Counted from the first letter of the whole stretch, positions 1 to 35,488 are shown. The stretch is DNA of 63,544 nucleotides, filler included, from 5 parts of 5 records of this genome joined end to end with filler, not necessarily neighbours in it; one strand, 5' to 3'. Numbers and translations: made by a program. The notes: generated by a model from the letters alone, not told the origin.

Positions 1-2260
1 GGATTTCATGGCTCATGTTGGCAAGGAAGTCACTTTTGGCGTGGGTGGCCTCCTCGGCCTTTGCCTTCTGCATATCCAGATCTTCCATCATGTTCAGCAT
101 GGCGGACTGGGCGGCGTCCAGCTCCTGCAGGTTTTTGTTTAGTTCCTCCTCGTCTTTCTTGCGGTCGGAGATGTCTATAATGGTGGTGATCGTTACCAAG
201 TCCCCGTCGGGAAGTTTAAATGCGGAAGAGTTCATTAGAACATCAAAGGAGCGACCGACCAAGGTGCACAAACGTGTCTCAAGCGATACCGCCTCTCCAT
301 TCCGTAGGGCTGGATAGATGATCTGTCCCGCGCGTTCAAATTCCTCTTCGTCCACATAAAAGGTTCGCACTTCCATGCCAACCATTTTCTCAGGGTCAAT
401 ACCCAGCATTTTCCCCAGCATATTATTCGCCAGGATGAATTTTCGGTCCTTCACAAGGGCGATGCCGATTGGAGCGGTATTGACGATCGATCGCAGACGT
501 TCTTCGTTCTCCTGCAACCTTTCCTCCACTTTTTTGCGGTCGGATATATCTAAGAATGTAACGACTATTTCCGCGGGCCCCGTGGCAAGTACAAATGCGG
601 TGGCGTTCAGGAGGACATCAAACGGCTTTCCATCCGAGTGGCGCATTCGCACTTCTAAAGACACCGTCTCACCCCGCCCCAGTGGTGGGTACACCGCCTG
701 CCCCACACGTTCAAATTCCTCGTCGTCCACATAAAAGGATCGCGTTTCCATGCCAACCATTTTGTCGGGGTCATATCCCAGCATTTTCCCCAGCATATTG
801 TTTGCCATGGTGAATTTCCGGTCTCTCACAAGCGCCATTCCGATTGGAGCGGTATTAACGATCGCCCTTAGACGCTCTTCGTTCTCCTTAAGCCGCGCAG
901 CCACCTTTTTGCGGTCGGTGATGTCTTCCTTGATAGCCAGGTAGTGGGTTATGCTTCCATCGGCTGATTTCACGGGTGAGATGTGAGCAGACTCCCAGTA
1001 TTGCTCGCCGTTTTTCTTTTTGTTCAGCAGTTCACCCCACCACTCCCTACCGGTACTGAGCGTTTTCCAGAGTTCCTGATAAATCTCAGGCGAGGTTTCA
1101 TCCGACTTGAGGATGCGGGGGTTTTGGCCAAGGGCTTCCTGTTTACTGTATCCGGTCACCTCGCAGAATTTGGCGTTCACATATTCAATGTTTCCGGCAA
1201 GGTCGGTAATGACCACCGAAGCGGGACTTTGTTCCACAGCTTTGGAAAGCTTACCAAGCTCCTCAGTGAACTCTTTGAGTTCCTTTTCCGCCCGTTTGCG
1301 TTCGCCTATTTCGCGCCGCAATTTCCTGTTCCAAAACAAGAAACTGAACAAAATAAGCAATGCGGCGCCACCTGCGACGAATAACCATTTCAGGATATCC
1401 GATGAGACGAGGGCATGCTCGTAGCGGATTGATGTCCAACGCTGTTGAATGAAATCCCGCTCGGTTTGAGTGATGGATGCCAGCACTTTATTAAGAATGC
1501 CCACCAGCATGGGCCAATCCTTCCGGACACCCATTCCCAGTTCATTGATCTTATCGGCGGTGGGTGCGGCCACTTTCAGGTTGGCAAGGCCCAATTGCCC
1601 AATGTAGTAACTCCCCACAGCTAGATTTATAACGTAGGCATCGGCTTTTCCCAGGGAAACCGCTTCGAGAGCCTCGGGAATGGATTTCACAAAATAAAAA
1701 TCTATCTTGGGATAACGTTTCTTTAACCTGGCGTAATAGGCAAGCGTTTTAATTTCCGCAACCTTTTTGCCGCTCAAATCGGCCAAGCCGCCGATAAAAG
1801 GGTAGTCCTTGCGAGTGATGATCACCAGGGGAAAAGAGAGGTATGGTTTGGTGTATGTCAAGAAGTCTTTACGTGCCGGCGTTTCGGCAACGCAGGGGAA
1901 AAGGTCTATCTTTTTGGCCCGGCCCATGGCCAGGGCCTGCTTGAAGGTGATCCCAAAAACCACATCCATCTTGACGCCAAGACGTTTTTCAATGAGGGAA
2001 ACATAGTCAGAGACCATTCCCTTGAACTGGTAGGCCCCGTTCTTCTCTTCCACGTACATGATGGGGATAAACTTGGTGCCCACACCCAGACGCAGGGTTG
2101 GGTGCTCCTTGAGCCAATGCTGTTCAGACTGTGTCAGATTTTGTTTGGGCCAGGTGCCGTGGTCTTCAGGTGGGTTCTCCTGGTTCCCTGCCGCCACGGG
2201 GGGGACAAATAGAAATATTGCCCAAAGAACGAAGGTGACGATAACGGTATTCAATCTCAC
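1..2260 (-). CDS. Sensor histidine kinase (periplasmic family-3 substrate-binding domain, TM, 3 PAS, HisKA); 3' end truncated by window edge
   Basis: Absent from the ORF track because there is no stop in the window. Manual translation: GTG at 2260 with AGGAG SD, signal-like N-terminus, LTQSEQHWLKEHPTLRLG PBP start, three PAS domains ending DITDRKK/DISDRKK, then AKSDFLANMSHEI (H-box typical of hybrid kinases) at positions 2-40. Confidence 0.92.
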   Translation of the reverse strand, partial: MRLNTVIVTFVLWAIFLFVPPVAAGNQENPPEDHGTWPKQNLTQSEQHWLKEHPTLRLGVGTKFIPIMYVEEKNGAYQFKGMVSDYVSLIEKRLGVKMDVVFGITFKQALAMGRAKKIDLFPCVAETPARKDFLTYTKPYLSFPLVIITRKDYPFIGGLADLSGKKVAEIKTLAYYARLKKRYPKIDFYFVKSIPEALEAVSLGKADAYVINLAVGSYYIGQLGLANLKVAAPTADKINELGMGVRKDWPMLVGILNKVLASITQTERDFIQQRWTSIRYEHALVSSDILKWLFVAGGAALLILFSFLFWNRKLRREIGERKRAEKELKEFTEELGKLSKAVEQSPASVVITDLAGNIEYVNAKFCEVTGYSKQEALGQNPRILKSDETSPEIYQELWKTLSTGREWWGELLNKKKNGEQYWESAHISPVKSADGSITHYLAIKEDITDRKKVAARLKENEERLRAIVNTAPIGMALVRDRKFTMANNMLGKMLGYDPDKMVGMETRSFYVDDEEFERVGQAVYPPLGRGETVSLEVRMRHSDGKPFDVLLNATAFVLATGPAEIVVTFLDISDRKKVEERLQENEERLRSIVNTAPIGIALVKDRKFILANNMLGKMLGIDPEKMVGMEVRTFYVDEEEFERAGQIIYPALRNGEAVSLETRLCTLVGRSFDVLMNSSAFKLPDGDLVTITTIIDISDRKKDEEELNKNLQELDAAQSAMLNMMEDLDMQKAKAEEATHAKSDFLANMSHEI

Positions 2261-2313
2261 TAGGTTCTCCTATGCGCACCAATGTCTTCGGTGCAATCCG
2301 GTCAAGCGTTAAC

Positions 2314-5300
2314 TCAGTGGATCTTGTACTCTTCCGGCCTGCCGCTTTCAGTCAGCAGCTGGTTGATCTCCTTTTTCAGCTCAATCATCATGTGCTCCCG
2401 GCCGACGGCAAGCCTCCGGAAGCGGGTCAGTTCATCGAATTTAATTTCCAGTTCCTTGGTCGTCTCTTTCATTTCAGTGGTGTCTACCCACCAACTGAGG
2501 ATTGCAGGTTTTCCGTTGTATTCGATTTTGAAATAATAGGAAAGTACGTCGCAAACCCCTCCTTTGGAATCATAGGCTTTTAATTCATAATTTCGAACCA
2601 TTCCGGTTCTTTCAAGTTCTTTGATAACATAATCGCGATCTTCCGGATTCACATAGATGTCAATCGGCATATCCCCTTTTTTGAGACCGAAAAATTCGGT
2701 CAAGAACTCATTTGAATATTGTATGATGCCATCGACAGAAATAACCACGGCGACAGGGCAGGTATCGAGTATCCGTTGAAGTCGCTCATGTTCCTCGGAC
2801 AAGGCTTTTTCCATGCGTCGGCGCTCCGTAATATCACGGACGGAAGCGACCACAAGAAGTCCTTCGGCTGTTTCGATGGGACTCAGGCCGATATCCATGG
2901 GCATTTTCCGCCCGTCCTTGGCAACACCATAGAAATCACTCCGAAATCCCATGGAAAACCGCTTCCGATCGGCATAAAACCTGGTGCGATAATCCGGATG
3001 CACATCCCGGATCTCCTCCGGAACCAGCATTTCAATCTTCTTGCCGATCAGCTCTGCCCGAGAATATCCAAAAACAGCTTCCGTTTCGGAATTAACCAGG
3101 ACAATGTTGCCGGCTTCATCGGTGACAATCATGGCGTCGGGCGCCGATTCAAGCAGGGCGGAGAAACGCTCTTCGGCGGCTCTTCGTTCGGTAATATCCG
3201 CAAAGGTGATCACCGCACCCACAAGGCTGCCGTTTTTCTCCATGGGCGTACTCGCGTATTCCACGGGAAAATGGCTCCCATCCTTTCGCCAGAGAACTTC
3301 GTTAGCCACGCGATGGGCAGTCCCTTCGGTAAAGGATTTAAACATGGGACAGTGTTGTATTAAATAGATCGTTCCGTCCTCATGGGAGTGGTGAATGGTC
3401 GGATGAATATTTTTTCCGATGAGTTCTTCTTCGCTGTACCCGAGCAGGTTCAGGGCGGCCGGGTTTGCGAAGATACATACCCCCTCTTTGTCCACGCCAA
3501 AAATACCCTCGCCGGCCGAATGGAGAAGCAGGCGGGACCGTTCCTCGGCGGTTTGAAGCAGTTCCTGTTTTTCCGCCAGTTCCGCGGTTCTTTCTTCAAC
3601 CTTATCTTCCAGGGTGTCTTTTGCCTCGATCAACGACTTGTGAGTGCGTTCACCCATGGCCAGGACAAATAATGTTGAACAGAGAAACAAAACCAGGGTC
3701 AGCCCCAGCACGGTCAGAATAATGAATCTAACCCGAAAATAGTTCGATAGCGCCTCGTCGAAACCAATTTCCGCCGCGATTCCCAGTTCGAGGTTCTTGT
3801 CCCAGACCCATGCGCCAACCACGGGAACGCCGCGGTAGTCCGGGTAACCACCAATATCCACTTCGATGTTTGAATGACCGAAGGTGGCGCCCGCAGCCTC
3901 CATTCTTGCTTTGAGAGCAATGGCTCCGGCTGCCGCACGTGTCAGCGGCAGACTGGATCTTTCGGATGCGGGATGGTGACCTTCCAGCATGTTGCCGCCG
4001 GGGTCTCTTATCTCGAGGTTTAAGGCTGCCGTTTGATCTTTTTCAATCAGGCCTATTTCACGCAACTGGGTGTCAAATTTCGTGTCGGTTACAAGCCTTC
4101 CGCTAACATCAAAGGCATAGGTTTCCTCGGTTCCCTTTCTACCCAGCATTCCCAGGATTTTTGAAAAATCTTTCAAAGGGTCTACCCTCAGGGTCATGGC
4201 CGCGATGGTCTTCCCTGTAGAATTTTGGATGGGTCCGATAAAAAACATGGTGGGAGGCTTGCGCTTCTGCTTTGAATCGGGAACTTCCTTCAGTTGAACA
4301 TCAGATTCCATGGCAGGCACGAAGTTTACCTGCCCATCAAGAGCCTTTTGGATCAAACCCGGATATTTGTCTACTATCAAATTACGTGTCCCGACGTTGG
4401 AATTACGCATGGAACCAATGCTGATATCTTGAGGGCTAATGATAAAAAATCCTATATTGGAAAAAATGTCTTTATTGTTTTTGAAGTAGTGGCGGACTTT
4501 CTCCAAGGCTTTCGACGTCAGCAAAGATTCGGGATTGGGGGGGATCGTCAATAATTCTTCCACGAGTCGCACCAACTCGGGATCTCGCCCCAGTTGCTTC
4601 ATAAATGCTTTTCTGTCAGCTTCCCAAACGCCGAGACCCTCTTCCGATATCAACAGCACCCTCTTAAGATTTTGCCCCACCCCTTGCAAAACCGCAGCCT
4701 TGATGCGCGTCAGAGCAAACCAACCAAGCGATGCAACAATAAGCACGAAGAAGCATAAACCGGCGATAACGATAGAACGAAAACGGCGCGAACCGAAACC
4801 GGCCAACATACTTTCTTGTTTGCTTAATTTGAGGAAAACCAAAGCGAGTAAAATGATAGCGATAAGAGTGGCCCCGGCGTAGCCAAGCAGCTTTCCAAAA
4901 GATAGGGGCAGGTCAGATTCCGACTTGGCCGCGCTCATTGTTATGGGAATCCATTTGTTTAAAATCGCGTTCATCTCCGCTTTGGTGATGGACTCCAATC
5001 CCTTGTTGATGATGCTGACCAGTTCAGGCCAGTCGGACCTAACCCCAATGTGGAAAGGCGGCGATTTCACTCCGGCTTGGGCGGCGATTTTTAAATTTGT
5101 AAGCCCGTTTTGCTCGATCAAATAACCAACCACGCCCAAATTGTCGATATAGGCGTCCACCTGGTTGCTCATGACCGCTTCCAGCCCGGCCAGAGGCGTC
5201 TTAACCATGATGATATTGAGATCGGGGAACGCTTTGCGACTTAGTTCGACAATGGCAAAATCTTTTGCCATTGCAACCTTGTCTTTGGTCATGTCGCCAA

Positions 5301-5790
5301 GGTTCTTTACAGACCGGAAATTCTTGTTGGTCACGATGACATAGGGACTCTTTAGCAGGGGCTTGCTGAATTTGAGATACTTTTCCCTTGTCGGTGTCTT
5401 AACTAGAATGGAAATGACGTCCAGGCGGCGGTCACGGCCAGCCTCGAGAACCTGCGTCCAGGTCAAATCGGGGAGAAGGTCGAACTTTATGTCCAGGCGC
5501 TTGCTCAGCAAAGCCATCACATCCGCGGCAACACCCCTTTGCTTTCCGGATGCATCGAAAAAATCATAGGGTGGCCATGCGGAATCGGCTCCCAGGCGGA
5601 GCACCCTGTGCTTTGCCAGCCAGGTCCTTTCCGCATCGGTCAGCCGAATGTTATCTTCATGGGTGAGTTCATCTTTCTGCGAATCCGAAGGCATCCAGCG
5701 TTTGGCCAGGCGCCTGTGCTCCTCGGGTGTAATTGACAACAGGGCTTTATCCAGGATTGTTGCCAGAATCGGCCAGTCATTACGAACGGC
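2314..5790 (-). CDS. Membrane sensor with at least 2 periplasmic substrate-binding domains, Cache-like domain and 3 PAS domains, no kinase/output domain; 5' end truncated
   Basis: 1141-aa ORF, open to the contig end (AVRNDWPILATILDKAL is the end of an earlier PBP repeat). PBP motifs (WPPYDF, GVRSDWPEL), TM helices, three PAS domains; ends LAVGREHMMIELKKEINQLLTESGRPEEYKIH*. Confidence 0.9.
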   Translation of the reverse strand, partial: AVRNDWPILATILDKALLSITPEEHRRLAKRWMPSDSQKDELTHEDNIRLTDAERTWLAKHRVLRLGADSAWPPYDFFDASGKQRGVAADVMALLSKRLDIKFDLLPDLTWTQVLEAGRDRRLDVISILVKTPTREKYLKFSKPLLKSPYVIVTNKNFRSVKNLGDMTKDKVAMAKDFAIVELSRKAFPDLNIIMVKTPLAGLEAVMSNQVDAYIDNLGVVGYLIEQNGLTNLKIAAQAGVKSPPFHIGVRSDWPELVSIINKGLESITKAEMNAILNKWIPITMSAAKSESDLPLSFGKLLGYAGATLIAIILLALVFLKLSKQESMLAGFGSRRFRSIVIAGLCFFVLIVASLGWFALTRIKAAVLQGVGQNLKRVLLISEEGLGVWEADRKAFMKQLGRDPELVRLVEELLTIPPNPESLLTSKALEKVRHYFKNNKDIFSNIGFFIISPQDISIGSMRNSNVGTRNLIVDKYPGLIQKALDGQVNFVPAMESDVQLKEVPDSKQKRKPPTMFFIGPIQNSTGKTIAAMTLRVDPLKDFSKILGMLGRKGTEETYAFDVSGRLVTDTKFDTQLREIGLIEKDQTAALNLEIRDPGGNMLEGHHPASERSSLPLTRAAAGAIALKARMEAAGATFGHSNIEVDIGGYPDYRGVPVVGAWVWDKNLELGIAAEIGFDEALSNYFRVRFIILTVLGLTLVLFLCSTLFVLAMGERTHKSLIEAKDTLEDKVEERTAELAEKQELLQTAEERSRLLLHSAGEGIFGVDKEGVCIFANPAALNLLGYSEEELIGKNIHPTIHHSHEDGTIYLIQHCPMFKSFTEGTAHRVANEVLWRKDGSHFPVEYASTPMEKNGSLVGAVITFADITERRAAEERFSALLESAPDAMIVTDEAGNIVLVNSETEAVFGYSRAELIGKKIEMLVPEEIRDVHPDYRTRFYADRKRFSMGFRSDFYGVAKDGRKMPMDIGLSPIETAEGLLVVASVRDITERRRMEKALSEEHERLQRILDTCPVAVVISVDGIIQYSNEFLTEFFGLKKGDMPIDIYVNPEDRDYVIKELERTGMVRNYELKAYDSKGGVCDVLSYYFKIEYNGKPAILSWWVDTTEMKETTKELEIKFDELTRFRRLAVGREHMMIELKKEINQLLTESGRPEEYKIH

Positions 5791-5890
5791 NNNNNNNNNN
5801 NNNNNNNNNNNNNNNNNNNNNNNNNNNNNNNNNNTTAATTAATTAANNNNNNNNNNNNNNNNNNNNNNNNNNNNNNNNNNNNNNNNNNNN
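5791..5890. other. Artificial contig spacer (N44-TTAATTAATTAA-N44)
   Basis: Identical 100-nt linker with six-frame stops occurs four times. Confidence 0.99.
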
Positions 5891-5918
5891 ACCGGGGGTT
5901 CGAATCCCCCCCTCTCCG
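5891..5918 (+). tRNA. tRNA 3' fragment, probably tRNA-Ser (T-arm and 3' acceptor strand, CCA not encoded)
   Basis: ACCGGGGGTTCGAATCCCCCCCTCTCCG: GGGGG-TTCGAAT-CCCCC T-arm and a Ser-type ...CTCTCCG end. Anticodon not in the contig; tRNA-Ser before ffs-dnaX is a common arrangement. Confidence 0.8.
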
Positions 5919-5925
5919 TATTTTT

Positions 5926-6048
5926 CCCTTCAGTGTTGATTCCCAGGCTCCATGCAATTGAACATCGCCCAACCCGGTCAGGACCGGAAGGTAGCAGCCG
6001 TAAGCGAACGTTTGATGTGCCATGGCAGGCTTGGAGGGAGCTGGAGGG
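5926..6048 (+). ncRNA. ffs: Small SRP RNA (4.5S)
   Basis: Helix-8 signature GTCAGGACCGGAAGGTAGCAGC at 5977-5998 inside a long hairpin (CCCTTCAG...CTGGAGGG) followed by a T run; directly upstream of dnaX. Ends approximate. Confidence 0.93.
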
Positions 6049-6110: not shown

Positions 6111-7313
6111 ATGGAATTTGAAGTTACCGCCTCACGGAAACGACCTCAATCTCTCGTCGAGTTGTCGGGTCAGGATTTTGTCGTAGCCACCCTCAAGAAC
6201 TCTATCGAATCGGGACGCATAGCCCATGCCTATCTCTTTTCCGGTCCCCGCGGAGTGGGTAAAACATCGTCGGCCCGCATTTTGGCCCGGTCTCTCAACT
6301 GCGAGAAGGGCCCCAGCATCACACCCTGCGGCGTCTGTTCCAACTGCGTGGAGATAGCCCGGGGCAATTCGATGGACGTTATCGAGATAGACGGTGCCTC
6401 CAATACGGGTGTCAACGATATCCGGGAGATCAAGGACGAGGTCCTTTTCGGACCCGGAAGCTCCCGTTATAAGATCTATATTATCGATGAGGTCCATATG
6501 CTCTCCAACAGTGCTTTCAACGCCCTGTTGAAGACTATCGAAGAGCCCCCTCCCTATATCATATTCATCTTCGCCACCACCGAGATCCACAAGGTGCCCG
6601 CCACCATCCGGTCCCGCTGTCAGCAGTTTAATTTTCGGCTTGTGGAGCTTGGAGAGATCAAAAGGCTTTTGGCCAATGTCTGCGACGAGATAGCCGTCAA
6701 GTACGATGAGGACGCCCTGTTCTGGATCGCCAGGGAGTCCACGGGTTCGGTCAGAGACGCCTATACCCTTTTCGATCAGATCGTATCCTTCTCGGAGGGC
6801 TATATCACCCTGGATAAGATCCGGGAGAAGCTCGGCCTTATAGGTATGGATCAGCTGAACGATCTGATGAGCCTGCTGGTGGAGGAGAAGGTTAACGATG
6901 CCCTGGATCTTCTGGATGCCATCCTCTCCGGAGGCGTATCGGTTGAACAGTTCATCATCGACCTGGCGGAGTATCTGAGGAACATCCTTTTTATCATTCA
7001 CGGCGTGAAGAAAGAGTCCCTTCTCGGGTATACGGCCGACCGCTTCTCATCCTCCCTGTTTGAGAATCTAAATGCCAAGCAGATAGAGTGGGCTCTGGAA
7101 GAAGCCATCACCCTGTTCAGGGAGATAAGATACTCTCTGAATCCCCGTTTTGAACTGGAACTTCTGATCAGCCGGATTTCATCCATCCGCTATCATATAG
7201 ACCCGAAGGAACTCCTGGGCGAACTGGCACGGATGCGGGAAAAACTCGGTTCCGCCGGCTCCCCCTCCGCCGTGGCTGCGCCTGTACGGGAGGCCCCAAA
7301 AAAAAAAGCCTGA
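6111..7313 (+). CDS. dnaX: DNA polymerase III subunit gamma/tau, zero-frame (gamma-length) product
   Basis: HAYLFSGPRGVGKTS Walker A, C..CGVCSNC Zn module, IIDEVHML Walker B, SRC motif; 400 aa ending at an A10 run. Confidence 0.98.
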   Translation: MEFEVTASRKRPQSLVELSGQDFVVATLKNSIESGRIAHAYLFSGPRGVGKTSSARILARSLNCEKGPSITPCGVCSNCVEIARGNSMDVIEIDGASNTGVNDIREIKDEVLFGPGSSRYKIYIIDEVHMLSNSAFNALLKTIEEPPPYIIFIFATTEIHKVPATIRSRCQQFNFRLVELGEIKRLLANVCDEIAVKYDEDALFWIARESTGSVRDAYTLFDQIVSFSEGYITLDKIREKLGLIGMDQLNDLMSLLVEEKVNDALDLLDAILSGGVSVEQFIIDLAEYLRNILFIIHGVKKESLLGYTADRFSSSLFENLNAKQIEWALEEAITLFREIRYSLNPRFELELLISRISSIRYHIDPKELLGELARMREKLGSAGSPSAVAAPVREAPKKKA

Positions 7314-7867
7314 AGCCCGCTGAGACGGGCTTGAGCGATGCCTTTGACAAGATGCTCCGCGATCGTGGAGAGAGGGTCCCCGACTCTTCTCCCGTTACAA
7401 CGGAGAAGCTTCCGGAAGAGCTCCCTCCGGTTTCTGCCGCTCCCCCCGCGGAGCTGAAGACGGAGGAAGCGGAAACCGAGGAAGAGCCGGAGATATCTCC
7501 TCATGCCGTTCCTTCCGCCGTCCATTCTGGCAATCTGCCGCCCATGGACACCCTCAAGGATCAAATATTGGGCGCCCTTCGTAGGGTGAGGCATTCCCTG
7601 GCCGCTACTATGGAGAAGGCCGAGCAGTGGGAGATGAACGGCGATACCCTCGTTCTGACATTCCGATCGACATTCGAGAAGTCTTTCCTCGAGAAGGAAC
7701 GGCATGAAATTGAAAAAATAATACTGGAAAGCCTGAACTACAGACTTCATCTTGATACGCAGCTCAGAAAGCGCGAAGAGCAGAGTACGTCGCATGAAGT
7801 GGAGGAGCAGGTGGAGTTGGTCCGCTCGGTTTTCCGCGGAACCATCATGAAAAGGAGTGAATCATGA
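7307..7867 (+). CDS. dnaX: C-terminal tau-specific part of DnaX, in the -1 frame
   Basis: The -1 frame is open from the A10 run (AGC CTG AAG CCC GCT GAG ACG GGC TTG...) into the 7331 ORF. P/E-rich linker, then a domain ending VELVRSVFRGTIM as in tau C-termini. The TTG at 7331 has no SD and sits in a hairpin. Confidence 0.82.
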   Translation, partial: SLKPAETGLSDAFDKMLRDRGERVPDSSPVTTEKLPEELPPVSAAPPAELKTEEAETEEEPEISPHAVPSAVHSGNLPPMDTLKDQILGALRRVRHSLAATMEKAEQWEMNGDTLVLTFRSTFEKSFLEKERHEIEKIILESLNYRLHLDTQLRKREEQSTSHEVEEQVELVRSVFRGTIMKRSES

Positions 7868-8184
7868 GTTTCAATCCCCTGGATTTTGTGAAGAATCTGC
7901 AGGAAATGCAGGGAAAGATGGGAGAGGTGCAGGAGAAACTCAAGGATATTGAGGCTGAGGGCAGTTCCGGAGGCGGACTGGTCAACGTCAAGATGAACGG
8001 TCAGATGGAGATCGTCGGCGTCACCATCGATCCCCTGGCGGTGGATCCCCGGGACGTGAAGATGCTTGAAGAGCTGATCGTGTCCGCGTCCACGGCCGCT
8101 TCCACAAAGGTCAGGGAGAAGATCAAGGAGGAGGTCAGCGGCATGGCAGGACTTCCTCCAGGGTTTCCCGGTATGAACATATGA
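7864..8184 (+). CDS. ybaB: YbaB/EbfC nucleoid-associated protein
   Basis: EGSSGGGLVNVKMNG, DVKMLEELIVSA; dnaX-ybaB-recR synteny. Confidence 0.96.
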   Translation: MSFNPLDFVKNLQEMQGKMGEVQEKLKDIEAEGSSGGGLVNVKMNGQMEIVGVTIDPLAVDPRDVKMLEELIVSASTAASTKVREKIKEEVSGMAGLPPGFPGMNI

Positions 8185-8768
8185 ACACCCTGGACAATCT
8201 TATCACTCTGCTCTCCCGCCTTCCGGGAATCGGGAAGAAGAGCGCCGTCCGGATGGCCTACGCTCTCCTGAAGGGAGATGAGGAGTATAACCGCCTTCTG
8301 GGTGAAGCGGTCTCCGAGCTCAAGGAGAGGATCCGAAAATGCAGGGAGTGCGGGAACTATACGGAGGAGGAGCTTTGCCCCATATGCTCCTCGGCCGACC
8401 GTGACAGTTCTCAGCTCTGTGTCGTCGAAGAGTCCCAGGATGTGATGATGATTGAGAGCACCGGGGAGTTCAGAGGGCTTTATCATGTCCTCCACGGCGT
8501 CCTCTCTCCCCTGGACGGCATGGGTCCCCGCGAACTGGGCTTCGACAGTCTGATTGAGAGGATAGACCGTCTTGATGTGAAGGAGCTCATCCTGGCGACC
8601 AATCCGACTATGGAGGGCGATTCCACGGCCCTGTACATCAAACAGCTTCTTGCGAATAGGGAGCTGAAGGTCTCCCGAATTGCCACGGGACTGCCCGTGG
8701 GGGGTGATATGGAGTATGCCGACAAGATGAGCATCTCCCGGGCCCTGAAGGGTCGGCTGGACTATTGA
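8181..8768 (+). CDS. recR: Recombination mediator RecR
   Basis: LPGIGKKSA HhH, C4 zinc finger, Toprim (ILATNPTMEGDSTA), GLPVGGDMEYAD. Confidence 0.98.
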   Translation: MNTLDNLITLLSRLPGIGKKSAVRMAYALLKGDEEYNRLLGEAVSELKERIRKCRECGNYTEEELCPICSSADRDSSQLCVVEESQDVMMIESTGEFRGLYHVLHGVLSPLDGMGPRELGFDSLIERIDRLDVKELILATNPTMEGDSTALYIKQLLANRELKVSRIATGLPVGGDMEYADKMSISRALKGRLDY

Positions 8769-22050: not shown

Positions 22051-22150
22051 NNNNNNNNNNNNNNNNNNNNNNNNNNNNNNNNNNNNNNNNNNNNTTAATT
22101 AATTAANNNNNNNNNNNNNNNNNNNNNNNNNNNNNNNNNNNNNNNNNNNN
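22051..22150. other. Artificial contig spacer
   Basis: N44-TTAATTAATTAA-N44. Confidence 0.99.
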
Positions 22151-28467: not shown

Positions 28468-28567
28468 NNNNNNNNNNNNNNNNNNNNNNNNNNNNNNNNN
28501 NNNNNNNNNNNTTAATTAATTAANNNNNNNNNNNNNNNNNNNNNNNNNNNNNNNNNNNNNNNNNNNN
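28468..28567. other. Artificial contig spacer
   Basis: N44-TTAATTAATTAA-N44. Confidence 0.99.
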
Positions 28568-35388: not shown

Positions 35389-35488
35389 NNNNNNNNNNNN
35401 NNNNNNNNNNNNNNNNNNNNNNNNNNNNNNNNTTAATTAATTAANNNNNNNNNNNNNNNNNNNNNNNNNNNNNNNNNNNNNNNNNNNN
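35389..35488. other. Artificial contig spacer
   Basis: N44-TTAATTAATTAA-N44. Confidence 0.99.

What the first reader, a model, noticed from the sequence alone, without database searches (positions are those of the whole stretch)
1..5790. Kinase-less sensor plus histidine kinase pair with in-register helices of contrasting charge: candidate heteromeric sensor kinase
Seen: two adjacent co-oriented genes each encode periplasmic binding domain(s), membrane segment(s) and exactly three cytoplasmic PAS domains. The upstream gene has no kinase, cyclase or receiver and ends in DTTEMKETTKELEIKFDEL-TRFRRLAVGREHMMIELKKEINQLL..GRPEEY (about 2314-2485). The downstream kinase has, at the same distance from its last PAS end, DISDRKKDEEELNKNLQEL-DAAQSAMLNMMEDLDMQK (AMLNMMEDL at 77-103) just before the H-box. 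Both segments run 19 residues from D-I/T to the second EL; one is then Arg-rich and the other has acidic residues. From memory and unverified, GRExxMxELK tails and AxLNxxED inserts recur in PAS proteins of anaerobes and I know no assigned function. Inference: the output-less protein docks its tail on the kinase pre-DHp helix, forming a heteromeric receptor that integrates two ligand sets.
Basis: partly seen in the sequence, partly recalled or inferred. Interest (0 to 1): 0.78.

Follow-up and report, generated by a model that had tools for sequence, protein, structure and literature searches.

The report
Paired helices linking sensor and kinase
A membrane sensor protein with no enzyme part ends in a short conserved helix that, in many bacterial groups, is nearly always encoded beside (or fused to) a matching conserved helix just before a kinase's active site, pointing to a widespread and undescribed way of plugging extra sensors into a signalling kinase.

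Summary
On the minus strand, a kinase-less sensor (2314-5790, cut at its 5' end by a contig join) lies 53 nt before a sensor kinase (2-2260, cut at its H-box by the window start). The sensor ends in a 45-aa "tail" module (F..LAVGRE.KMIELKKEIN.LL...G...Y.I). The kinase carries an "LN" module (A.LN..EDL) 30 residues before the H-box. Neither is an ordinary linker. The tail defines at least 12,528 protein clusters with no Pfam family and no PDB relative. In the best 150 it sits at the extreme C-terminus, and the sensor's 38 closest relatives have no kinase domain, so the sensor is not a truncation.

The two modules are coupled. An LN protein follows the tail gene in 41 of 61 assessable operons. 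In ten whole genomes, 11 of 12 LN copies lie 1.0-4.3 kb downstream of a tail. Every LN-bearing genome in three phylum samples also has a tail, one of them divergent. Both modules also occur in one chain, in Chlorobiales kinases and PocR sensors.

Best reading: a cognate helix pair, used in cis or in trans, that couples output-less sensors to kinases. Physical contact is inferred, not shown. The charge contrast does not generalise.

The parts
2314..5790 (-). Kinase-less membrane sensor gene, 5'-incomplete because it runs into the contig-join linker. Stop codon at 2314-2316.
   Evidence: Pfam and NCBIfam find SBP_bac_3 and three PAS stretches and no output domain. It is 53% identical to P0002 residues 536-1693.
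5740..5790 (-). Last 17 codons of a further, upstream SBP_bac_3-type domain (AVRNDWPILATILDKAL).
   Evidence: It matches the end of the complete SBP domain in the same protein. It aligns to P0002 residues 536-552.
4948..5601 (-). Periplasmic SBP_bac_3 (Venus-flytrap) domain of the sensor.
   Evidence: residues 47-264 of the TTG-started ORF, which are P0001 residues 64-281.
3655..4890 (-). Three hydrophobic membrane segments (4825-4890, 4711-4782, 3655-3726) that enclose a second extracytoplasmic domain of about 330 aa with no Pfam match here.
   Evidence: Hydropathy scan. Some relatives carry dCache_1 (PF02743) in the precomputed Pfam column.
2485..3600 (-). Three cytoplasmic PAS domains of the sensor. 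Their terminal DIT/DTT motifs start at aa 865, 986 and 1103.
   Evidence: (TIGR00229, 3 stretches).
2317..2484 (-). PAS-exit helix plus the C-terminal 'tail' module. The 45-aa core is 2317-2451: LEIKFDELTRFRRLAVGREHMMIELKKEINQLLTESGRPEEYKIH.
   Evidence: (alignment A1; invariant L8 R18 E19 M22 L25 K26 E28 N30 L32 Y42).
2261..2313 (-). 53-nt intergenic spacer with AGGAG 6 nt before the kinase's GTG start.
   Evidence: Read.
2..2260 (-). Sensor histidine kinase gene, 3'-incomplete. The window starts inside the H-box (..FLANMSHEI).
   Evidence: The full-length syntenic relative in L001 carries HisKA, HATPase_c, two REC and Hpt.
1433..2095 (-). Periplasmic SBP_bac_3 domain of the kinase, flanked by hydrophobic segments at 2189-2242 and 1331-1387.
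176..1252 (-). Three cytoplasmic PAS domains of the kinase. PAS1 (aa 337-457) resembles NifL/LOV-type flavin PAS. DIT motifs start at aa 446, 571 and 696.
   Evidence: (TIGR02938 144.5 bits, below its 242 cut-off).
32..151 (-). 'LN' module of the kinase (EEELNKNLQELDAAQSAMLNMMEDLDMQKAKAEEATHAKS). AMLNMMEDL is at 77-103.
   Evidence: (alignment A2; invariant L19 N20 E23 D24).
2..16 (-). Start of the phospho-acceptor H-box (MSHEI).
   Evidence: HisKA profile positions 1-13.

Best explanation
The 'tail' and 'LN' segments are two halves of one conserved signalling junction.

The tail is the end of the coiled-coil helix that leaves the last PAS domain of a sensor with no output domain. The LN module is the first part of the long helix that runs into the kinase's phospho-acceptor helix or, in other operons, from a receiver domain into a PAS-kinase core.

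I propose that the tail helices of a sensor dimer pack against the LN helices of a kinase dimer, probably as a four-helix bundle. Ligand-induced movements in the sensor's PAS/helix stalk would then be passed to the kinase and change its autophosphorylation.

In the window, this would let a multi-domain periplasmic and PAS sensor add its inputs to those of a BvgS-like kinase that also has its own binding domain and PAS domains.

Shown here:
- both modules are conserved families;
- they are coupled in operons, in genomes and within single chains;
- each keeps a fixed heptad phase.

Inferred:
- physical contact between the two helices;
- the geometry of the bundle;
- the direction of the effect on the kinase.
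For: 1. The tail is a real, large family.
- An HMM of A1 finds 12,528 cluster representatives at E<=1e-3 and 2,966 at E<=1e-10 among 1.84 billion.
- In all but 2 of the best 150, the best-scoring stretch ends within 21 residues of the C-terminus.
- The 38 closest relatives of the sensor have no kinase domain.
- No Pfam family and no PDB sequence relative was found for either module.

2. Operons.
- In L001-L080 (80 kept of 597 confirmed hits), 41 of 61 assessable tail-gene arrays have an LN protein at >=30 bits within four co-directional downstream genes. At >=18 bits it is 44 of 61.
- 51 of 61 have a kinase core there.
- The closest locus, L001, repeats the window's order: sensor, then kinase with AMLNMMED.

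3. Whole genomes.
- In ten genomes there are 12 LN hits. Eleven lie 1.0-4.3 kb downstream of a tail on the same contig and strand. The twelfth is on a 4.7-kb contig filled by the kinase.
- Samples: 101 Desulfobacterota genomes have tail in 18, LN in 11, both in 10 (Fisher p 2e-8). 201 Pseudomonadota genomes have tail in 46, LN in 6, both in 6 (p 1e-4).
- The single LN-only genome has a divergent tail in the gene directly upstream.

4. Same-chain forms.
- 38 Chlorobiales hybrid kinases read PAS-tail-(30-75 aa variable acidic linker)-LN-HisKA.
- In the AlphaFold2 model the linker is disordered. The tail is the end of the PAS-exit helix (106-149). LN opens the helix (197-278) that continues into DHp helix 1. 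The only sensor domain therefore cannot reach the kinase through the backbone.
- 13 of 19 double-tail sensors have an LN-like motif after the internal tail and PocR domain, against 0 of 125 single-tail proteins (p 3e-14).

5. Divergent pairs stay together.
- In 9 of 12 loci from 'tail-only' Pseudomonadota, the adjacent kinase has A[ST]LNM[LM]LD or AALNLMED.
- Further variants are seen in L090, L094 and L095.

6. Heptad phase.
- DIT to tail is 28 (+7). DIT to LN is 24 (+7n in four more).
- LN to H-box is 30, 37 and 51 residues (51 read).

7. Window pair.
- The distance from the last membrane segment to the last DIT is 391 aa in the sensor and 386 aa in the kinase.
Against: No result here shows contact.

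- The tail is commoner than the canonical LN motif: 40 of 46 Pseudomonadota and 8 of 18 Desulfobacterota tail genomes had no A2 hit at E<=1e-4. In L091-L093 and L096-L099 no LN-like motif was found near the tail.
- Four archaeal loci (DUF169-tail-kinase-REC) have a kinase with no LN motif before its H-box.
- In 17 of 61 assessable arrays no LN at >=18 bits lies within four co-directional genes.
- In type-II operons the LN protein is not the nearest kinase. A CheR gene and a 4HB_MCP/HAMP hybrid kinase lie between.
- Loci were ascertained through the tail, and related operons are not independent events.
- The subtype co-variation seen is confounded by clade.
- The charge complementarity is not general.
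Confidence: 0.6

Rival explanations
1. The sensor and the kinase do work together, but through other surfaces such as PAS-PAS, membrane or periplasmic contacts. The tail only zips and caps the sensor's own coiled coil. The LN motif is only a lineage feature of the partner kinases.
For: Both modules have heptad hydrophobic patterns and a conserved Asn, as self-associating coiled coils do (read from A1 and A2). The tail occurs without a canonical LN motif in many genomes and in archaeal operons. Both window proteins have PAS domains and periplasmic SBP domains that could pair.
Against: It does not explain why LN is found almost only beside a tail genome-wide. It does not explain why LN persists while its context changes: after PAS, after REC or after PocR. 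It does not explain why an internal tail brings an LN-like motif in the same chain (13 of 19 against 0 of 125). It does not explain how the Chlorobiales PAS would signal across a disordered linker.
Confidence: 0.17
2. The two modules do not touch each other. Both are recognition or modification sites for a shared third factor, for example a CheR/RsbM-type methyltransferase, and that is why they travel together.
For: A CheR gene directly follows the tail gene in 25 of 76 arrays, often with a 4-nt overlap. CheB-CheR-PAS_10 fusions precede tail genes in L049, L065, L074 and L112. Four genomes with such operons show no MCP signalling domain, yet their only stand-alone CheR sits beside the tail gene. 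In Bacillus cereus the methyltransferase RsbM, encoded in one operon with the hybrid kinase RsbK, methylates RsbK on its signalling helix (PMC4574943, abstract and passages).
Against: The window-type operons (Desulfobacterota, Pseudomonadota) have no CheR next to the pair. In CheR operons an RsbK-like kinase (4HB_MCP_1/HAMP/(GAF)/HisKA/HATPase/REC) lies right after CheR and is the substrate expected from the precedent. Neither module shows the Glu-Glu/Gln methylation consensus of chemoreceptors (recalled consensus, compared by eye).
Confidence: 0.12
3. Nothing special is here. Both stretches are ordinary PAS-exit (J-alpha) coiled-coil linkers, and the in-register likeness is what any two PAS-linker sequences would show.
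For: PAS domains commonly end in D-I-T and continue as a helix whose length is heptad-constrained (established knowledge, recalled). The charge contrast does not generalise.
Against: Invariant polar residues in both modules hold across many phyla: R-E..M..LK.E.N and LN..ED. The tail family has 12,528 clusters and sits at the C-terminus in the best 150. The co-occurrence is strong.
Confidence: 0.03
4. The upstream gene is a decayed or truncated kinase gene, that is, a pseudogene or an assembly artefact.
For: The contig is short and both genes are cut by its ends.
Against: The gene ends at a stop codon directly after the conserved tail, as do the tail proteins. All but 2 of the best 150 representatives have their best tail stretch within 21 residues of the end. 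The next gene has its own start, ribosome-binding site, signal-like segment and SBP domain. The truncation is at the 5' end only.
Confidence: 0.01

Closest known systems
Signalling helix (S-helix) of Anantharaman, Balaji and Aravind 2006 (PMC1592074; passages read)
   Same: It is a conserved coiled-coil segment of about 40 residues that carries signals between sensor and output domains, with an Arg placed at a core 'd' position (ERT). By my heptad reading the tail's GRE also puts its Arg at 'd'. In REC-LN proteins a true ERT lies 13-15 residues before LN.
   Different: The S-helix works in cis, between two domains of one chain. The tail usually ends the protein and has GRE, not ERT. The window's LN segment has no ERT. 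S-helices are not described as coming in two cognate kinds encoded in neighbouring genes.
HAMP domains and the four-helix bundles of chemoreceptors (recalled)
   Same: Two helices per subunit, joined by a flexible connector, form a four-helix bundle in the dimer that relays signals to a kinase. The Chlorobiales form (tail-linker-LN) has this topology.
   Different: There is no Pfam HAMP or MCPsignal match in either module. The helices are longer and the connector is 30-75 aa and disordered. The two helices can lie on different proteins.
RetS-GacS and other kinase-kinase or accessory-protein controls of sensor kinases, such as LuxP-LuxQ, TorT-TorS and UhpC-UhpB (recalled, not read here)
   Same: A second sensor protein modulates a histidine kinase by direct protein contact, so that one kinase integrates several inputs.
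   Different: Those cases use DHp-DHp heterodimers or periplasmic or membrane contacts and are lineage-specific. Here a dedicated pair of short modules recurs across Desulfobacterota, Pseudomonadota, Bacteroidota (including Chlorobiales), Chloroflexota, PVC groups and others.
RsbK-RsbM of Bacillus cereus (PMC4574943; abstract and passages read)
   Same: A methyltransferase (RsbM) encoded in one operon with a CHASE3-HAMP-GAF-S-helix hybrid kinase methylates that kinase's signalling helix. Type-II tail operons contain a CheR gene followed by a 4HB_MCP_1/HAMP/(GAF) hybrid kinase.
   Different: This concerns related operons, not the window's contig, which has no CheR. RsbK/RsbM systems are not described with tail or LN partners.
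BvgS/EvgS-type Venus-flytrap hybrid sensor kinases (recalled; NCBIfam NF007420)
   Same: The window kinase has periplasmic SBP_bac_3, a membrane segment, PAS and an H-box. Its L001 relative adds HATPase, two REC and Hpt.
   Different: The EvgS model scores 51 bits against a cut-off of 1995. There are three PAS domains. The LN module and a partner sensor are not features of BvgS/EvgS.

Membership tests
S-helix (signalling helix) | ERT signature at heptad positions c-d-e of the central heptad | tested here: not met
   The tail has G-R-E (invariant R18, E19). The window's LN segment has no ERT. ERT is present upstream of LN only in REC-LN proteins. The definition is from PMC1592074 passages.
S-helix (signalling helix) | Lies between an upstream sensor domain and a downstream output domain in one chain | tested here: not met
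   The tail's best stretch ends within 21 residues of the C-terminus in all but 2 of the best 150 representatives. LN does lie between PAS and DHp.
HAMP | Match to Pfam PF00672 over the two-helix unit | tested here: not met
   No HAMP hit in the sensor, in the kinase or in the isolated modules, even at E<=10.
Methyl-accepting chemotaxis protein | MCPsignal domain (PF00015) | tested here: not met
   Not found in either window protein. Also not found in 4 of 5 genomes that carry tail-CheR operons.
Histidine kinase (for the upstream gene) | HisKA/DHp with phospho-acceptor His, and HATPase_c | tested here: not met
   The 38 closest relatives also lack both. No H-box is found by pattern in the tail genes listed.
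Hybrid histidine kinase (for the downstream gene) | H-box, HATPase_c, REC, Hpt | tested here: inconclusive
   Only the H-box start is inside the window. The syntenic L001 kinase has HisKA, HATPase_c, two REC and Hpt. No whole genome is held.
EvgS/BvgS equivalog | NCBIfam NF007420 at or above its cut-off | tested here: not met
   51 bits for the kinase and 60.4 bits for the sensor, against a cut-off of 1995.
RsbK/RsbM-like methylated kinase system | CheR-family methyltransferase gene next to a HAMP-containing hybrid kinase, and methylation of its pre-DHp helix | not testable with these tools
   The gene pair is present in type-II operons but not on the window's contig. Methylation needs an assay.
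Tail module (defined here, A1) | F..(L/M)(A/T)VGRE.(K/R)M(I/V).LK.E(I/V)N.L....G....Y at the end of a PAS-exit helix, 28 aa from DIT | tested here: met
   Window 2317-2451 is the first row of A1. The DIT-to-R spacing of 28 follows from the positions (DTT at aa 1103, core from aa 1114) and matches the family value.
LN module (defined here, A2) | EL-x5-A.LN(L/M)(L/M)EDL at the start of the helix leading to the next domain, 24 aa from DIT and 30 aa from the H-box | tested here: met
   Window 32-151 is the first row of A2. Spacing.

The most novel reading that the evidence does not exclude
Tail and LN are a general 'plug and socket' for signalling helices. Any sensor stalk that ends in a tail can be wired, in cis or in trans, to any helix that starts with LN. 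Arrays of one to four output-less PAS/GAF/PocR sensors would then converge on one kinase, much as chemoreceptors converge on CheA. In some lineages this would come with CheR-type methylation for adaptation in organisms that have no chemoreceptors at all. It would assign a mechanism to more than ten thousand clusters of 'PAS domain S-box proteins' with no output domain.
Probability: 0.4. Interest if true: 0.9.

Novelty: new variant of a known kind. Interest (0 to 1): 0.8.

Why it matters
Genomes of anaerobes, and many others, encode large numbers of multi-PAS, GAF or PocR proteins with no output domain. How these proteins signal is an open question. A census of archaeal two-component systems concludes that such proteins probably act through protein-protein contacts and that none has been studied (PMC5847659, abstract and passages).

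This work gives two short sequence signatures, a partner-prediction rule (the LN-bearing protein downstream) and natural fused forms. Together these make the question directly testable.

If the contact is real, it is a new modular way of building multi-input kinases. It would also be a ready-made part for engineering sensor-kinase chimeras in trans.

Tried and rejected
Structure and complex prediction.
- Complex prediction of the window's own pair (PAS3+LN x2 with PAS3+tail x2): no verdict. Scores were 0.02 and 0.01 against a mark of 0.34, with ESMFold2 and without my alignments. It counts neither for nor against binding.
- The AlphaFold2 model of the Chlorobiales fused segment gives secondary structure and confidence only, no contacts.

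Ideas rejected or downgraded.
- Charge complementarity as a general rule: rejected.
- 'Truncated kinase': rejected.
- 'CheR methylates the tail': downgraded after finding the RsbK/RsbM precedent and the RsbK-like kinase right after CheR.
- Tail as a degenerate DHp helix 1 (likeness to ELEQF..ASHDL-type H-boxes, seen by eye in P0047): not tested further.
- Subtype co-variation between tail and LN: seen, but confounded by clade, so not used as evidence.

Searches that found nothing.
- Sequence searches of the PDB with both profiles: only chance hits, E 1.7 and 2.2.
- Pfam at E<=10 on the isolated modules: nothing relevant.
- The motif strings LNLLED, LNILED, LNMMED, LNLMED, ELKKEIN and ELKKEVN are in no relevant paper.
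- Searches on CheR with PAS kinases and on output-less PAS proteins next to kinases found no description of these modules (listings only).
- The search for the S-helix literature gave the two papers read; the passages read do not mention these modules.

Limits of the tools.
- No whole genome is held for the window.
- The A2 profile is narrow and misses LD/DD/Y variants, so 'tail-only' counts are upper bounds.

Full report
WHAT IS IN THE WINDOW

Positions 1-5790 are one short contig. At 5791-5890 lies an N-run, TTAATTAATTAA and a second N-run, and three more such joins follow further on. No whole genome is held.

Two co-oriented genes on the minus strand fill the contig.

The upstream gene (2314-5790) is open at its 5' end. 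As read it has 1158 codons (P0001):
- the last 17 residues of one SBP_bac_3-type domain;
- a complete SBP_bac_3 domain;
- two hydrophobic segments, a stretch of about 330 aa with no Pfam match, and a third hydrophobic segment;
- three PAS domains;
- a 56-residue helical end.

No kinase, cyclase or receiver domain is found. It is 53% identical, end to end, to residues 536-1693 of P0002. P0002 has an NMT1-like and two SBP_bac_3 stretches in front, so roughly 535 residues are probably missing here.

The kinase gene starts 53 nt after the sensor's stop, with a GTG preceded by AGGAG. It runs off the window inside its H-box. It has:
- a signal-like segment, SBP_bac_3 and a membrane segment;
- three PAS domains, the first NifL/LOV-like (144.5 bits, below that model's cut-off);
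- then DISDRKK..ELDAAQSAMLNMMEDL..SDFLANMSHEI.

The local charge contrast (+3 against -4) is also correct.

THE TAIL IS A CONSERVED MODULE

A search with the last 174 residues of the sensor gave 393 hits at E<=1e-3. The best 120 were listed.
- The 38 closest hits cover 93-100% of the query, are SBP_bac_3/PAS proteins of Desulfobacterales and relatives, and have no HisKA or HATPase.
- In 69 of the 121 proteins then held, a motif E-L-x-(R/K)-F-x-R-(L/M)-A-V-G-R-E-x-K-M-I-E-L-K-K-E-I-N-x-L-L-x3-G-x3-K-Y-K-I lies in the last 60 residues.

A 14-sequence alignment (A1) has ten invariant columns. As a profile it finds 12,528 representatives at E<=1e-3 and 2,966 at E<=1e-10 among 1.84 billion. In all but 2 of the best 150, the best stretch ends within 21 residues of the C-terminus.

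They come from Desulfobacterota, Gammaproteobacteria, Magnetococcales, Bacteroidota, Chloroflexota, Victivallales, Kiritimatiellales, Verrucomicrobiota, Planctomycetota, Ignavibacteria, Nitrospirota-like lineages, and Methanosarcinales and ANME-2 archaea.

No Pfam family and no PDB sequence relative exists for the tail. The motif strings are not in the paper library.

The distance from the PAS 'DIT' to the Arg of GRE is 28 residues in 46 of 48 cases and 35 in the other two.

THE LN SEGMENT IS A SECOND CONSERVED MODULE

In the 80 loci kept, a motif A-x-L-N-(L/M)-(L/M)-E-D recurs in 55 of 651 called proteins at >=30 bits on a local profile.

It always opens a helix. Three contexts are seen:
- 24 residues after a PAS 'DIT' and 30 residues before the H-box, as in the window and other Desulfobacterota;
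- about 35 residues after an N-terminal receiver domain in REC-LN-PAS-kinase proteins;
- after a HAMP-like ERT helix.

Alignment A2 has L, N, E and D invariant. No Pfam or PDB relative was found.

THE TWO MODULES TRAVEL TOGETHER

Three kinds of evidence, all computed here, show this.

1. Operons. There are 84 tail-gene arrays (92 genes). Of these, 61 have at least 4 kb of downstream sequence.
- In 41 of the 61, an LN protein lies within four co-directional genes (44 at a laxer threshold).
- In 51 of the 61, a kinase core lies there.

Two layouts dominate.
- Type I (Desulfobacterota, Gammaproteobacteria, Magnetococcales; the window's type): tail gene, optionally a Peripla_BP_4 or ODP gene, then a hybrid kinase with LN before the H-box.
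- Type II (Bacteroidota, Chloroflexota, PVC, Ignavibacteria): a receiver gene, one to four tail genes, CheR, a kinase of about 990 aa with 4HB_MCP_1, HAMP, HisKA, HATPase and two REC but no LN, then a REC-LN protein.

L001, the closest locus (89% identity in the tail), has the window's order.

2. Genomes. In ten whole genomes reached through the loci there are 12 LN hits in all.
- Eleven lie 1.0-4.3 kb downstream of a tail on the same contig and strand.
- The twelfth sits on a 4.7-kb contig that the kinase fills.

Phylum samples:
- 101 Desulfobacterota (including the centre genome): tail in 18, LN in 11, both in 10 (p 2e-8). In 8 of those 10 the two lie within about 1-5 kb on one contig and strand. 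The one LN-only genome has a divergent tail (ELERFQKATINREFRMKEIREE) in the gene just upstream.
- 201 Pseudomonadota: tail in 46, LN in 6, both in 6 (p 1e-4).
- 101 Bacteroidota: tail in 10, LN in 1.

3. One chain. The nine 'tail-only' Bacteroidota-sample genomes carry hybrid kinases of the kind that sources name as Chlorobiales. Eight full genes and one fragment cut by its contig end were fetched.
- In these kinases a PAS domain is followed by the tail module.
- Then comes a variable, acidic linker of 30-75 residues.
- Then a divergent LN (ALINLVEDAN or ALLNLIEDAN), then the H-box. Thirty-eight such proteins were found.

In the AlphaFold2 model (pLDDT 72, pTM 0.38) the tail ends the PAS-exit helix (106-149), residues 161-194 are below pLDDT 50, and LN opens the helix (197-278) that becomes DHp helix 1. 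The only sensor domain is thus tied to the kinase core by a disordered tether. This makes sense only if the tail helix meets something on the kinase side.

Independently, 19 of the 144 representatives scanned have two tails. In 13 of those 19 an LN-like motif (AA[ML][NS][LV]AED) lies between them, after a PocR domain. None of 125 single-tail proteins has one (p 3e-14).

Further same-chain cases are L022_5, L049_9 and L078_2.

DIVERGENT FORMS STAY PAIRED

The A2 profile is narrow.
- Of 12 loci fetched around strong tails in Pseudomonadota (11 from genomes without an A2 hit), 9 have an adjacent hybrid kinase with A[ST]LNM[LM]LD 37 residues before the H-box, or AALNLMED at 62.
- Among 'tail-only' Desulfobacterota, L090, L094 and L095 have ASLSIMED, AMLYILED or ALLNLVDD proteins downstream.
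- No LN-like motif was found near the tails in L091-L093 and L096-L099. Some of these are short contigs.
- Four archaeal loci (DUF169, tail gene, dCache/HAMP/GAF kinase, REC) have no LN before the H-box.

The LN-to-H-box spacing takes the values 30, 37 and 51, in steps of seven (51 read). L110 (62) is an exception.

HOW IT PROBABLY WORKS

Each module keeps a fixed heptad phase to the domain it belongs to. By my reading of A1 and A2, both have hydrophobic residues outside the a/d seam and invariant polar residues. Those are features of helices with more than one interface. This is an inference.

The simplest model that fits operon, genome and fusion data is that tail helices pack on LN helices, passing the sensor's conformational signal into the helix that carries the phospho-acceptor His.

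In the window pair the last membrane segment and the last 'DIT' are 391 and 386 residues apart. This would let the two stalks run side by side, which is again an inference.

The single complex prediction allowed returned no verdict. Contact is therefore not shown.

THE CheR LINK

A CheR gene follows the tail gene in 25 of 76 arrays. Four of five genomes with such operons have no MCP signalling domain, one of them a complete 4.86-Mb chromosome. Their only stand-alone CheR is the one beside the tail gene.

In Bacillus cereus the methyltransferase RsbM, encoded in one operon with the hybrid kinase RsbK (CHASE3-HAMP-GAF-S-helix-HK-CA-REC), methylates RsbK on its signalling helix (PMC4574943). The kinase after CheR in type-II operons has a similar architecture. 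The expected substrate is therefore that kinase, not necessarily the tail. The window's contig has no CheR.

COMPARISON WITH WHAT IS KNOWN, AND VERDICT

The nearest concept is the S-helix (PMC1592074). Both modules fail its defining ERT signature. The tail also fails its position between two domains.

HAMP and chemoreceptor bundles are the nearest mechanical analogues, but there is no family match. Accessory-sensor control of kinases is a known kind of system. A dedicated, cross-phylum pair of helices usable in cis or in trans is, as far as searches show, not described.

Coupling of the two modules is close to certain. Direct docking is likely (about 0.6) but untested.

Noticed in passing
window 5791-5890, 22051-22150, 28468-28567, 35389-35488: N-run + TTAATTAATTAA + N-run linkers. 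The window is a chain of at least five contigs, so genes on either side of a linker are not neighbours in the genome.
   Followed up: yes
window 5941-6039 (+), 6111-8768 (+): Bacterial small SRP RNA (69.6 bits), followed by ORFs that I take to be dnaX (6111-7313), a YbaB-like gene (7864-8184) and recR (8181-8768). These three names come from reading the translations, not from a search. A T-arm-like stretch at about 5891-5925 looks like a tRNA gene cut by the contig end. ARAGORN called no tRNA.
   Followed up: partly
window 890-1252 (-), kinase aa 337-457: The kinase's first PAS domain is close to NifL/YtvA-type flavin PAS domains (TIGR02938 144.5 bits, NF052652 102.5 bits; both below cut-off). 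This suggests a redox or light input besides the periplasmic binding domain.
   Followed up: no
L024, L027, L035, L041, L044, L047, L049, L050, L058, L064, L066, L067, L076, L077, L079, L080: A conserved operon: REC, one to four tail genes, CheR, then a hybrid kinase of about 990 aa (4HB_MCP_1-HAMP-HisKA-HATPase-REC-REC), followed in most of these loci by a REC-LN protein. In G002, G206, G207 and G208 no MCP signalling domain was found at all, so this CheR must have a non-chemoreceptor substrate.
   Followed up: partly
L034, L053, L055, L061: Methanosarcinales and ANME-2 operons: tail gene, dCache/HAMP/GAF hybrid kinase, then REC in L034, L053 and L061 (minus-strand ORFs follow the kinase in L055). 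A DUF169 gene precedes the tail gene in L034, L053 and L055. The kinase has no LN motif, so the archaeal tail may have a different socket.
   Followed up: partly
L049, L065, L074, L112: CheB-CheR-PAS_10-PAS fusion proteins (950-1014 aa) end 1-4 nt before, or overlap, a short tail gene in L049 and L065, with gaps of 157 nt in L074 and not measured in L112. They may be split or fused versions of one protein.
   Followed up: no
L001 19110-19634, L038 10355-10873, L022 10278-11072: Small V4R-domain genes (L001, L038) and an ODP di-iron gene (L022) lie directly after tail genes. These are possible small-molecule or oxygen co-sensors of the same junction.
   Followed up: no
L082 7236-8447 (-), L086 7650-8858 (-): A FIST-domain sensor gene lies directly upstream of the two Chlorobiales tail-linker-LN kinases that were scanned with Pfam. 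The other fused loci have an unscanned gene of about 400 aa in the same place.
   Followed up: no
L102-L109: In Pseudomonadota the tail reads ..MIALKEE.. and the partner LN reads ..LNMLLDLE... A Glu-to-Ala change in the tail goes with a Glu-to-Leu change in LN. This may be a compensatory pair, but it is one clade only.
   Followed up: partly
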